A stretch of 64,000 nucleotides of DNA from a virus: IMG/VR virus record IMGVR_UViG_3300021961_000021. One strand, written 5' to 3'. This document shows positions 29,758 to 31,858 of the stretch, piece after piece; position 1 is the first letter of the stretch; each line of letters starts with the position of its first letter. The position numbers were made by a program, and so were the translations under genes. The notes beneath the pieces were generated by a model. It had not been told where the DNA came from. It did not search any database and saw only the letters and a list, made by a program, of their open reading frames with translations.

Positions 29758-29830
29758 CGGGTCAGGTAGGGATCGAACCTACGACCGACTGCTTAGAAGG
29801 CAGTTGCTCTATCCACTGAGCTACTGACCC
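29758..29830 (-). tRNA. trnR: tRNA-Arg(TCT)
   Basis: GGGTCAG/CTGACCC acceptor, TAGCTCAGTGGATAGAGC D-arm, anticodon loop CTTCTAA, GGTTCGATCCC T-arm. 73 nt, no CCA. Confidence 0.95.
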
Positions 29831-30038: not shown

Positions 30039-30482
30039 TCAAGTGTTCGGGTAGTAGTCTTTTCTATAATACCTGCCAAGAATATTACTGTTGTAATAGG
30101 CAGGAGCACCATTCAAAGATTCAGTGAGTACATTGTTGAGAAACAATTGCCGTGTCTCTTCATAATTGGTTTTGCCAGGTGTGAGGTGGAGGGAAAGAAT
30201 CTCCCTCCTAAAGTTTTCTTTACCAAATAATTTGATGTCGTCTTTTAGTTCTGGGCAAGATCCATAATACTTTTTCCAATCAGACTCTAGTGTTTTCCGT
30301 CGCTTTTCCCCTTTAGGTTTTCGATGAGACCAGAAATACTTTCTGCCAATGTACGATTTTCCTGTTGTGATATTGGTAATCTTATAAACAAACCCATAGT
30401 GATTCCCAATACACTCGCTAGTAAAATTCTGGTCATTATATAACCAAGGGTTTTCATAATCAGTCTGCCTCTCCATCGTCAT
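30039..30482 (-). CDS. GIY-YIG endonuclease (T4 endonuclease II/Seg-like)
   Basis: GFVYKITN...SYIGRK, WKKYYGS and F.REIL. Confidence 0.85.
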   Translation of the reverse strand: MTMERQTDYENPWLYNDQNFTSECIGNHYGFVYKITNITTGKSYIGRKYFWSHRKPKGEKRRKTLESDWKKYYGSCPELKDDIKLFGKENFRREILSLHLTPGKTNYEETRQLFLNNVLTESLNGAPAYYNSNILGRYYRKDYYPNT

Positions 30483-31306: not shown

Positions 31307-31337
31307 AAAAAAAGAGACTCACTTATGTGTGAGTCTC
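31307..31337 (-). terminator. Terminator after DUF4278 gene
   Basis: GAGACTCAC-ACATAA-GTGAGTCTC followed by T7. Confidence 0.85.
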
Positions 31338-31344
31338 ATAACGT

Positions 31345-31494
31345 TCATTTAACTTGCTTACTGGGTTCGTAATGCCTTACATACTTAATGCCACGATAAA
31401 TTTCTTCGCGCCATTGTTCTTGCATTGTTTCAAACTTCGCTTTACGAAGTTCTTCGGTGTCATATTGAGCACCACGATAAACTACCTTAGACAT
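31345..31494 (-). CDS. DUF4278-type peptide (49 aa)
   Basis: Hand-translated MSKVVYRGAQYDTEELRKAKFETMQEQWREEIYRGIKYVRHYEPSKQVK. Two YRG motifs, AGGAG SD. Confidence 0.85.
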   Translation of the reverse strand: MSKVVYRGAQYDTEELRKAKFETMQEQWREEIYRGIKYVRHYEPSKQVK

Positions 31495-31525
31495 AAGATT
31501 AACTCCTAAAGAAATGAGATGGTTA

Positions 31526-31565
31526 GTCCCGTTCCTTCAGTCGGCTTTTGCGTCTACGAAACAAC
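31526..31565 (-). ncRNA. Second, degenerate glutamine-II-like aptamer overlapping the end of the upstream peptide ORF
   Basis: TGTTTC-GTAGA-CGCAAAAGCCGACTGAAGGAACGGGAC. Same CGCA/GCCGAC/GGAACGGGAC core as the copy at 31701, but P2 nearly absent. Confidence 0.55.
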
Positions 31566-31692
31566 TTTTCTTTGTGACTTGCTTAACCTCCCACACAAGA
31601 TCATTCTTTTGTTGGTCGGTGACAATTTGACTGGCATTGATTCTACTAATGAGAAGTTGTGCCTGTAAGCAAGTTAAGAAAATCTGTTCCAT
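31537..31692 (-). CDS. Riboswitch-downstream peptide (51 aa)
   Basis: Hand-translated MEQIFLTCLQAQLLISRINASQIVTDQQKNDLVWEVKQVTKKSCFVDAKAD. Confidence 0.65.
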   Translation of the reverse strand: MEQIFLTCLQAQLLISRINASQIVTDQQKNDLVWEVKQVTKKSCFVDAKAD

Positions 31693-31700
31693 AGATGAAC

Positions 31701-31755
31701 GTCCCGTTCCGAGTCGGCTTACTTGCGTTCGCTATTTGGAAATAGCGAATGAACG
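31701..31755 (-). ncRNA. Glutamine-II (Downstream-peptide) riboswitch
   Basis: CGTTCA-[TTCGCTATTT CC AAATAGCGAA]-CGCAAGTAAGCCGACTC-GGAACGGGAC. P1 CGTTC/GGAACG and P2 hairpin. Linked to a DUF4278 gene. Confidence 0.8.
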
Positions 31756-31858
31756 ATAATACTATTTAGTTTTTCTCTTTTTGTTTTTGTGTTTTCTCCT
31801 TTGACAGGGTTTAGTTTTATTAAGATCATTCTTGAGTTGCCTCAAGAATCTGATGTGT

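What the first reader, a model, noticed from the sequence alone, without database searches (positions are those of the whole stretch)
31345..31755. Tandem glutamine-II-like riboswitches, the second written into the last codons of the first peptide
Seen: aptamer 1 (31755-31701) has P1 CGTTC/GGAACG, a 10-bp P2 and the CGCA/GCCGAC core. Just downstream, GGAACG-GGA-CGTTC offers an alternative pairing next to the ATG at 31692. That 51-aa ORF ends C-F-V-D-A-K-A-D-stop, and its DNA (TGTTTCGTAGACGCAAAAGCCGACTGAAGGAACGGGAC) repeats the core with P2 almost deleted. It precedes a DUF4278 peptide with two YRG motifs. Known: the Downstream-peptide motif binds glutamine and precedes DUF4278 genes in cyanobacteria, where a role related to glutamine synthetase inactivating factors has been proposed. 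Inference: the phage senses host nitrogen status through a two-tier switch in which translation of peptide 1 remodels aptamer 2.
Basis: partly seen in the sequence, partly recalled or inferred. Interest (0 to 1): 0.7.

Follow-up and report, generated by a model that had tools for sequence, protein, structure and literature searches.

The report
Gene nested inside phage glutamine riboswitch
This cyanophage puts a glutamine-sensing RNA switch with two sensor cores in front of a small IF17-like peptide gene, and one stem of the switch closes around a complete, conserved 51-codon gene, so sensing nitrogen status and translating that gene must compete on one RNA.

Summary
Core 1 (31757-31701, minus strand) matches the type-1 glutamine riboswitch model RF01739 just below threshold. 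Neither core matches the glutamine-II model.

The second core is not a stub with P2 deleted. Its P2 helix closes around the whole 51-aa ORF. The start codon lies in the 5' strand of P2, and the last five codons plus the stop are the aptamer core. P2 covaries across 90 related phage loci. The insert is open in one frame in 85 of 90. In 48 ORFs chosen by protein similarity, the last five codons show almost no synonymous variation.

Two long-range pairs covary only if the two cores swap P1 partners into one nested fold (113/113 and 51/51 loci). The number of independent events behind this is uncertain.

A weak DUF4278 (IF17-like) gene and a terminator follow. Glutamine probably turns that gene on, by homology with tested leaders, but the window's own expression platform is unclear.

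This scan has found the same layout before on other DNA (61 notes, at least 52 genomes). I found no publication describing it.

The parts
31751..31755 (-). Outer P1, 5' strand (CGUUC)
   Evidence: Coordinates. Part of the RF01739 match. Its proposed partner is 31534-31530, on the basis of the long-range pair covariation.
31728..31749 (-). P2a hairpin of core 1 (10 bp)
   Evidence: In short-P2 relatives all four tested P2a pairs show changes on both sides.
31720..31727 (-). J2/3 of core 1 (CGCAAGUA). C31725 is the long-range-pair base X.
   Evidence: X pairs with the base after the last GGAACG in 113/113 and 51/51 loci.
31712..31719 (-). Box 1 (AGCCGACU), proposed 5' strand of a P3 helix formed with box 2
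   Evidence: Box 1 position 1 against box 2 position 8 reads A:U 116, C:G 8, G:U 1.
31697..31710 (-). Inner hairpin: GGAACG 31710-31705, loop GGA, CGUUC 31701-31697. G31704 is the proposed partner of C31550.
   Evidence: formed in the MFE. Core 2's C pairs with the base after the first GGAACG in 107/113 loci.
31684..31695 (-). P2b 5' strand, containing the AUG of the nested ORF (31692-31690)
   Evidence: End-anchored covariation across 90 loci. 12 bp in the window.
31537..31692 (-). Nested 51-aa ORF (two invariant Cys, phrog_504). The RNA also folds as an extended P2 rod.
   Evidence: Open in 85/90 relatives in this frame, against 2 and 0 in the other frames. Codon-position variability 0.36/0.19/0.48. 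phrog_504 E 5.7e-6. 34 homologous clusters. 418 IMG/VR stretches. AF2 helical hairpin, pLDDT 84. Rod 83.7% paired against 41-52% when slid.
31553..31564 (-). P2b 3' strand (codons 43-46 of the nested ORF)
31529..31552 (-). Core 2: J2/3b 31552-31546, box 2 31546-31539, stop UGA 31539-31537, GAAG 31538-31535, outer P1 3' strand 31534-31530, long-range partner G31529
   Evidence: The last five codons and the stop use one codon each in 48 ORFs chosen by protein similarity. The same core with a short P2 scores 36.9-39.4 bits on RF01739.
31506..31540 (-). Local alternative hairpin: 31540-31527 pairs with 31519-31506 (core 2's 3' strand against the pyrimidine tract and the first bases of the SD)
   Evidence: segment -15.5 kcal/mol; also in the MFE. 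Not shown to be conserved family-wide.
31345..31507 (-). SD AGGAG 31507-31503 and the 49-aa DUF4278-like (IF17-like) ORF 31494-31345
31314..31337 (-). Intrinsic terminator ending the unit
   Evidence: 9-bp stem, 5 G-C pairs, T-run.

Best explanation
This is a phage-borne glutamine-sensing leader of the type-1 (glnA RNA) class, built from two aptamer cores. It controls a small DUF4278 (IF17-like) peptide gene, and a real 51-codon gene is nested inside stem P2 of the second core.

Shown here:
- Both cores are present.
- P2 of core 2 closes the ORF and covaries.
- The ORF is coding.
- Its last five codons are frozen by the RNA.

Supported by covariation: the cores fold as one nested unit.
- Outer P1 is 31755-31751 with 31534-31530, capped by C31725:G31529.
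- Box 1 pairs with box 2 as P3.
- The inner hairpin is 31710-31697.

Inferred mechanism:
- Glutamine locks the outer P1 and its long-range pair.
- That withdraws the strand 31540-31527 from a competing hairpin with the pyrimidine tract and the start of the SD.
- The DUF4278 gene is then translated. This is an ON switch, as measured for the Synechocystis gifB and Prochlorococcus MED4 leaders.
- The folded sensor buries the nested AUG in P2.
- A ribosome reading the nested ORF must melt P2b, box 2, the GAAG strand and the outer P1, and it stops on the core itself.
- Sensor folding and nested-gene translation therefore exclude each other.
For: - Rfam: core 1 scores 30.8 bits, E 1.2e-4. The core 2 sequence in short-P2 relatives scores 36.9-39.4 bits, above the gathering score of 35.
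- S-PM2 carries both cores with short P2 stems directly before the same gene.
- Of 124 loci, 96 have CGUUCA 142-199 nt upstream of core 2, with an ORF ending at the core UGA.
- P2b pairs 3-5 are 96-100% paired with 3-4 pair types each. Mean helix length is 6.8 bp, against 4.07 +/- 0.21 for shuffled partners and <= 1.8 when slid.
- Coding: 85/90 open in the frame of the core UGA, against 2 and 0 in the other frames. Two Cys residues are invariant.
- In an unbiased set, the DAKAD codons and the stop are essentially fixed, while other conserved residues use 2-6 codons.
- Six loci have a homologous ORF inside P2 of the first core instead.
- Nested fold: X against the base after the last GGAACG is Watson-Crick in 113/113 (C:G 72, G:C 41) and 51/51 loci. 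The side-by-side register fails in 41/113 and 33/51.
- Box 1 position 1 against box 2 position 8 includes a compensatory A:U to C:G change in 8 loci.
- ON direction, and the long-range-pair base acting as the start of an anti-RBS strand: PMC6212724 and PMC6698751.
- C-type platforms in relatives show this anti-SD helix significantly.
- The window has a local alternative hairpin.
Against: - Core 1 in the window is below the Rfam gathering score, and core 2 gets no match at all because of the 130-nt insert.
- In the window both registers give C:G pairs, and their energies are similar (nested -69.5, side-by-side -67.3 kcal/mol). The nested fold therefore rests on relatives.
- The G:C state is tied almost entirely to one platform type (39 of 41). 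Only 4 concordant changes lie on well-supported branches, sign test p 0.125.
- The compensatory box change may be a single event.
- The window's platform type shows no significant anti-RBS complementarity (z about -0.2). Its alternative hairpin is not shown to be conserved.
- RNAalifold recovers only the long-range P1 of core 2, not the rod.
- There are no binding, expression or proteomic data. DUF4278 membership is below the Pfam cut-off.
Confidence: 0.6

Rival explanations
1. Two independent side-by-side aptamers. Core 1 (31755-31705) folds on its own and gates the nested ORF through the competing GGAACG/CGUUC hairpin. Core 2 (31701-31530, with the ORF in its P2) separately gates the DUF4278 gene.
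For: - Tandem glnA RNAs are published (PMC2864571).
- Rfam aligns core 1 as a self-contained aptamer.
- In the window both long-range pairs are C:G in this register too.
- The energy is within 2 kcal/mol of the nested fold.
- Core 1 is transcribed first, so it could fold first.
Against: - In 41/113 and 33/51 relatives the long-range pair of core 1 would be G.G, G.A or G.U, and that of core 2 would be C.C.
- Intra-box hairpins would be C.U and A.G in 8 loci.
- Core 1 always lacks the GAAG strand and core 2 always has a shortened J2/3. These deficits complement each other only in the nested fold.
Confidence: 0.25
2. The 51-codon frame is not translated. The insert is only a long structured extension of P2, and its open frame is incidental.
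For: - The insert folds as a long rod.
- No Shine-Dalgarno precedes its AUG.
- Third-position variability is only modestly above first-position variability.
Against: - 85/90 are open in one frame, against 2 and 0 in the others, and lengths differ by whole codons.
- Two Cys residues are invariant and the residue pattern is conserved across very different nucleotide sequences.
- Synonymous variation occurs at most conserved residues.
- The family is phrog_504, with a confident helical-hairpin model.
Confidence: 0.05
3. The element is a glutamine-OFF switch, or it is not glutamine-responsive in the phage context (a diverged relic, or a sensor of another ligand).
For: - Both cores deviate from the RF01739 consensus (no P3 hairpin; GAAG or GUA missing).
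- The window's platform lacks the published anti-RBS arrangement.
Against: - The ligand-contacting elements named in the structure papers are all present: the P1 C-G and G-C pairs, the CGN strand and the long-range pair.
- Both tested natural classes are ON switches.
- The cores are strongly conserved in hundreds of phage contigs.
Confidence: 0.1

Closest known systems
Type-1 glutamine riboswitch (glnA RNA motif, Rfam RF01739), e.g. the Synechocystis gifB/IF17 leader (PMC6212724), including published tandem arrangements (PMC2864571)
   Same: It has the same P1 sequence, a P2 directly after CGUUCA, the CGNAAGUA strand, the GAAG strand and the long-range pair after P1. It is associated with a DUF4278/IF17-like gene. 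In many relatives the long-range-pair base starts an anti-SD strand.
   Different: There is no P3 hairpin. Each core lacks one conserved strand. Covariation indicates that the two cores swap P1 partners into one nested fold. A protein-coding gene sits inside P2. The element is phage-borne. The window's copies fall below, or are missed by, the Rfam model.
Glutamine-II riboswitch (Downstream-peptide motif, RF01704; structure in PMC6698751)
   Same: It has an identical CGUUC/GGAACG ligand-binding helix, a CGC strand with a C:G long-range pair, and a small DUF4278-type ORF downstream.
   Different: No RF01704 match in the window. The Gln-II P2 helix that brackets GGAACGG is absent. The 5' CGUUC pairs as an ordinary P1 rather than as an H-type pseudoknot.
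Leader-peptide attenuators, and ORFs housed in peripheral loops of group I introns
   Same: Translation of a small ORF is mechanically coupled to the folding of a regulatory RNA. A gene is tolerated inside a stem of a structured RNA.
   Different: Here the ORF is a conserved protein (two invariant Cys), not a codon-sensing leader. The host RNA is a metabolite aptamer, not a ribozyme. The Gln-codon richness of the window's peptide (7 of 51) is not shared by other subfamilies.

Membership tests
Glutamine riboswitch type 1 (RF01739) | Covariance-model score at or above the gathering score (35 bits) | tested here: not met
   Window core 1 scores 30.8 bits and core 2 gets no match. Relatives with the same core 2 sequence and a short P2 score 36.9-39.4 bits.
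Glutamine riboswitch type 1 (RF01739) | P1 CGUUC/GAACG and a P2 helix starting right after CGUUCA | tested here: met
   Both P1 strand pairs are present. P2a and P2b covary.
Glutamine riboswitch type 1 (RF01739) | Long-range Watson-Crick pair between the third base of the CGN strand and the base 3' of P1 | tested here: met
   113/113 and 51/51 loci pair, but only in the nested register. In the window the pairs are C31725:G31529 and C31550:G31704.
Glutamine riboswitch type 1 (RF01739) | P3 hairpin and E-loop strands (AAGUA with GAAG) within one aptamer | tested here: not met
   Rfam forces a 2-bp P3. Core 1 lacks GAAG and core 2 lacks GU. Both strands are present only when the two cores are read as one fold.
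Glutamine riboswitch type 1 (RF01739) | Selective L-glutamine binding | not testable with these tools
   Needs in-line probing or ITC.
Glutamine-II riboswitch (RF01704) | Model score at or above 33 bits, and a P2 helix enclosing the GGAACGG loop (H-type pseudoknot) | tested here: not met
   No match in the window at E <= 10. Relatives score 24-28 bits, with non-standard pairs in that helix.
DUF4278 (PF14105; IF17-like peptides) | Pfam score at or above 25.3 bits | tested here: not met
   22.9 bits, E 1.1e-4, residues 3-45. Two YRG motifs are seen. phrog_5049 E 2.2e-10. Best described as DUF4278-like.
DUF4278 (PF14105; IF17-like peptides) | Inactivation of glutamine synthetase | not testable with these tools
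   This is unproven even for the short picocyanobacterial homologues (PMC6212724).

The most novel reading that the evidence does not exclude
A single compound glutamine sensor, made of two interlocked cores, gates two small proteins in opposite directions. The nested two-Cys peptide is made only while the sensor is unfolded, either during transcription or at low glutamine. The IF17-like peptide is made when glutamine locks the sensor. Each ribosome passing through the nested gene erases and resets the sensor, and because it terminates on the core it may also open the downstream ribosome-binding site.
Probability: 0.3. Interest if true: 0.9.

Novelty: new variant of a known kind. Interest (0 to 1): 0.8.

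Why it matters
- Riboswitch aptamers are thought of as compact non-coding domains, and a conserved protein gene inside an aptamer helix has not been described in the papers I could search.
- The layout forces a direct physical contest between ligand sensing and translation on one RNA. This regulatory logic can be tested with simple reporters.
- It is common. More than 120 IMG/VR contigs share the exact core and 418 encode the window's peptide clade. A 2017 survey found only two glutamine aptamers in cyanophage genomes and concluded that phages rarely use riboswitches (PMC5473149). Standard covariance-model scans miss or under-score these copies.
- It points to phage manipulation of host nitrogen status through IF17-like peptides during infection of marine Synechococcus and Prochlorococcus.

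Tried and rejected
- The gathering-threshold Rfam scan of the window found only a tRNA.
- A MAFFT alignment of all 90 ORF-bearing cores aligned on the ATG and broke the P2 register, so I used end-anchored counting instead.
- RNAalifold on the window's clade recovered the long-range P1 of core 2 but not the rod.
- A search for a core 2 variant with G as the long-range-pair base, which would test the inner pair, found none in IMG/VR.
- No whole genome is held for this window.
- Anti-RBS complementarity right after the last GGAACG is significant for C-type platforms but not for the window's G-type.
- Complementarity of the GAAGGAAC strand to the platform was no better than composition allows, family-wide.
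- Tree-based counts of independent covariation events were concordant but under-powered.
- The protein Atlas gave no usable hit.
- Foldseek against the PDB gave nothing with E <= 0.001.
- The Ames & Breaker 2011 paper is not held.
- I considered and rejected the nested ORF as a Gln-codon leader peptide. Gln is enriched only in the window's clade.
- I considered and rejected core 2 as a recombination scar. Its synonymous sites are frozen.
- The weak freshwater-2 RNA match (E 9) is noise.

Full report
**What is at the coordinates**

On the minus strand the unit runs from about 31757 to the terminator at 31337-31314. It lies between nrdB plus a 135-aa ORF of no known family upstream and transaldolase talC downstream. 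The phage is a T4-like cyanomyovirus, about 74% identical to Syn9 and Syn10 in this region, with no close isolate.

The gathering-threshold Rfam scan finds only a tRNA. A local permissive scan matches 31757-31701 to the type-1 glutamine riboswitch RF01739 over the full model. The score is 30.8 bits against a gathering score of 35, E 1.2e-4. Nothing matches the second copy, and RF01704 (glutamine-II) matches nothing.

**The second core is complete and encloses the ORF**

- In S-PM2, two complete short-P2 cores stand directly before the homologous peptide gene.
- In the window and in DSL-LC02, DSL-LC03, S-SRM01 and P-HM2, the CGUUCA that follows core 1 is separated from the second core's 3' half by a 50-58 codon ORF.
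- Of 124 loci carrying the core 2 sequence, 96 have CGUUCA 142-199 nt upstream with an ORF that ends exactly at the UGA inside the core. Another 18 have the ordinary short P2.
- With a short P2, the same core 2 sequence scores 36.9-39.4 bits on RF01739, above threshold. RF01704 stays at 24-28 bits, below its cut-off of 33.

The helix that closes the ORF covaries. I counted it outward from the junction.
- Pair 3 reads UA 46, CG 39, UG 4, AU 1.
- Pair 4 reads AU 42, UA 19, CG 14, UG 11.
- Pair 5 reads UA 53, AU 20, UG 8, CG 5.
- Mean helix length is 6.8 bp, against 4.07 +/- 0.21 with shuffled partners (maximum 4.69 in 1000 shuffles) and at most 1.8 when slid.

The 5' strand of this helix is mostly non-coding leader plus the AUG, and the 3' strand is codons.

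In the window P2 continues as a 12+7+9 bp rod (MFE z -4.4). In the window's clade the rod is 83.7% paired, against 41-52% when slid, with three pairs changed on both sides. Because I derived that structure from the window, I count this as moderate support.

**The insert is a gene**
- 85 of 90 distinct inserts are open in the frame of the core UGA, against 2 and 0 in the other two frames.
- Lengths differ by whole codons.
- The peptides share a hydrophobic N-terminus, two invariant Cys residues and a DAKAD end.
- Codon-position variability is 0.36/0.19/0.48.
- The family is phrog_504, function unknown. All 34 homologous clusters are unnamed.
- AlphaFold gives a two-helix hairpin with pLDDT 84, with no informative fold match.

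I chose 80 loci by peptide motifs well away from the core, out of 418 relatives in IMG/VR. In 48 distinct 51-aa ORFs, the last five codons and the stop each use a single codon, or 96% one codon for Lys. Other conserved residues use 2-6 codons. The second core therefore does not drift like synonymous coding sequence.

**Nested or side by side**

Earlier notes of this scan called the cores interlocked, and I tested that claim here. In both solved glutamine riboswitch classes, the third base of the CGN strand pairs with the base just 3' of the GGAACG strand (PMC6698751).
- Core 1's base X pairs with the base after the second GGAACG in 113/113 loci (C:G 72, G:C 41), and in 51/51 loci of the independent set.
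- Against the base after the first GGAACG, it fails in 41/113 and 33/51 loci.
- Core 2's C would face a C in 42 loci in the side-by-side register.
- The pair-count tool gives the same picture on 14 short-P2 tandems.
- Box 1 position 1 and box 2 position 8 read A:U 116, C:G 8, G:U 1. Intra-box hairpins would be mismatched in those 8 loci.
- Core 1 always lacks GAAG and core 2 always has a shortened J2/3. Together they make one full consensus.

Caveats:
- The G:C state is tied to one platform type.
- Only 4 concordant changes sit on supported branches.
- In the window both registers pair, and their energies are similar.

**How it probably works**

Published leaders of both classes are glutamine-ON translational switches. 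In them the long-range-pair base starts an anti-RBS strand (PMC6212724; PMC6698751). Relatives with a C at that position show exactly this anti-SD helix. The window's platform type does not.

Instead the window has a local hairpin in which 31540-31527 pairs with 31519-31506. That runs into the SD and would compete with the outer P1. The nested AUG lies in P2, and the nested stop lies in the core. Ribosome passage and sensor folding therefore exclude each other. This step is inferred from geometry and has not been measured.

**Distribution and novelty**
- Six loci carry a homologous ORF in P2 of the first core, and many loci have ORFs in both.
- Exact-core matches in 185,579 species genomes number three, and all look phage-derived.
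- Tandem glnA RNAs, the DUF4278 link and glutamine riboswitches in cyanophages are published.
- I found no description of the nested gene or of the swapped-partner fold.
- This scan has reported the same layout before on other DNA.

Noticed in passing
window 31763-31769 (-): CTAAATA lies 7 nt upstream of the sensor's first P1 base, and there is no sigma-70-type promoter on this strand. Relatives instead have TTGACT/TTGCAT-N17-TATAAT-like boxes in the same place. From memory, which I did not check, this resembles the T4-like cyanophage late-promoter motif. If so, the timing of expression may differ between phages.
   Followed up: no
L040, L083, L096 (just upstream of the first CGTTCA); L006, L010, L113: Palindromes overlap the predicted -10 box immediately before the sensor. 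One form fits the NtcA consensus GTA-N8-TAC. An earlier scan note also mentions an NtcA box. The window itself has none.
   Followed up: no
L034:1071-1268 and L065:1674-1875 (-): Strong manA RNA (RF01745) matches of 174-175 bits lie a few hundred bases downstream of the glutamine unit in two marine phage contigs.
   Followed up: no
window 30039-30482 (-): A SegE-type GIY-YIG homing endonuclease (PF19835, E 1.2e-51) lies between talC and a tRNA gene at 29758-29830 (73.1 bits).
   Followed up: partly
L133, L134, L135: The only cellular-genome hits to the core are two MAG contigs (Acetobacteraceae, Parvibaculales) and a 189,106-bp contig of a Prochlorococcus single-cell assembly. That contig has the same length as an IMG/VR phage contig (L040). 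These are probably phage DNA binned with, or amplified from, cells.
   Followed up: no
window 31640-31669 (-): A promoter-like site (9 of 12 matches) lies inside the nested ORF. A transcript starting there would lack the 5' half of the sensor. It is probably a chance match.
   Followed up: no
window 31537-31692 (-): The window's nested peptide has 7 Gln in 51 residues, including the conserved CLQAQ. Other subfamilies have one or none.
   Followed up: partly
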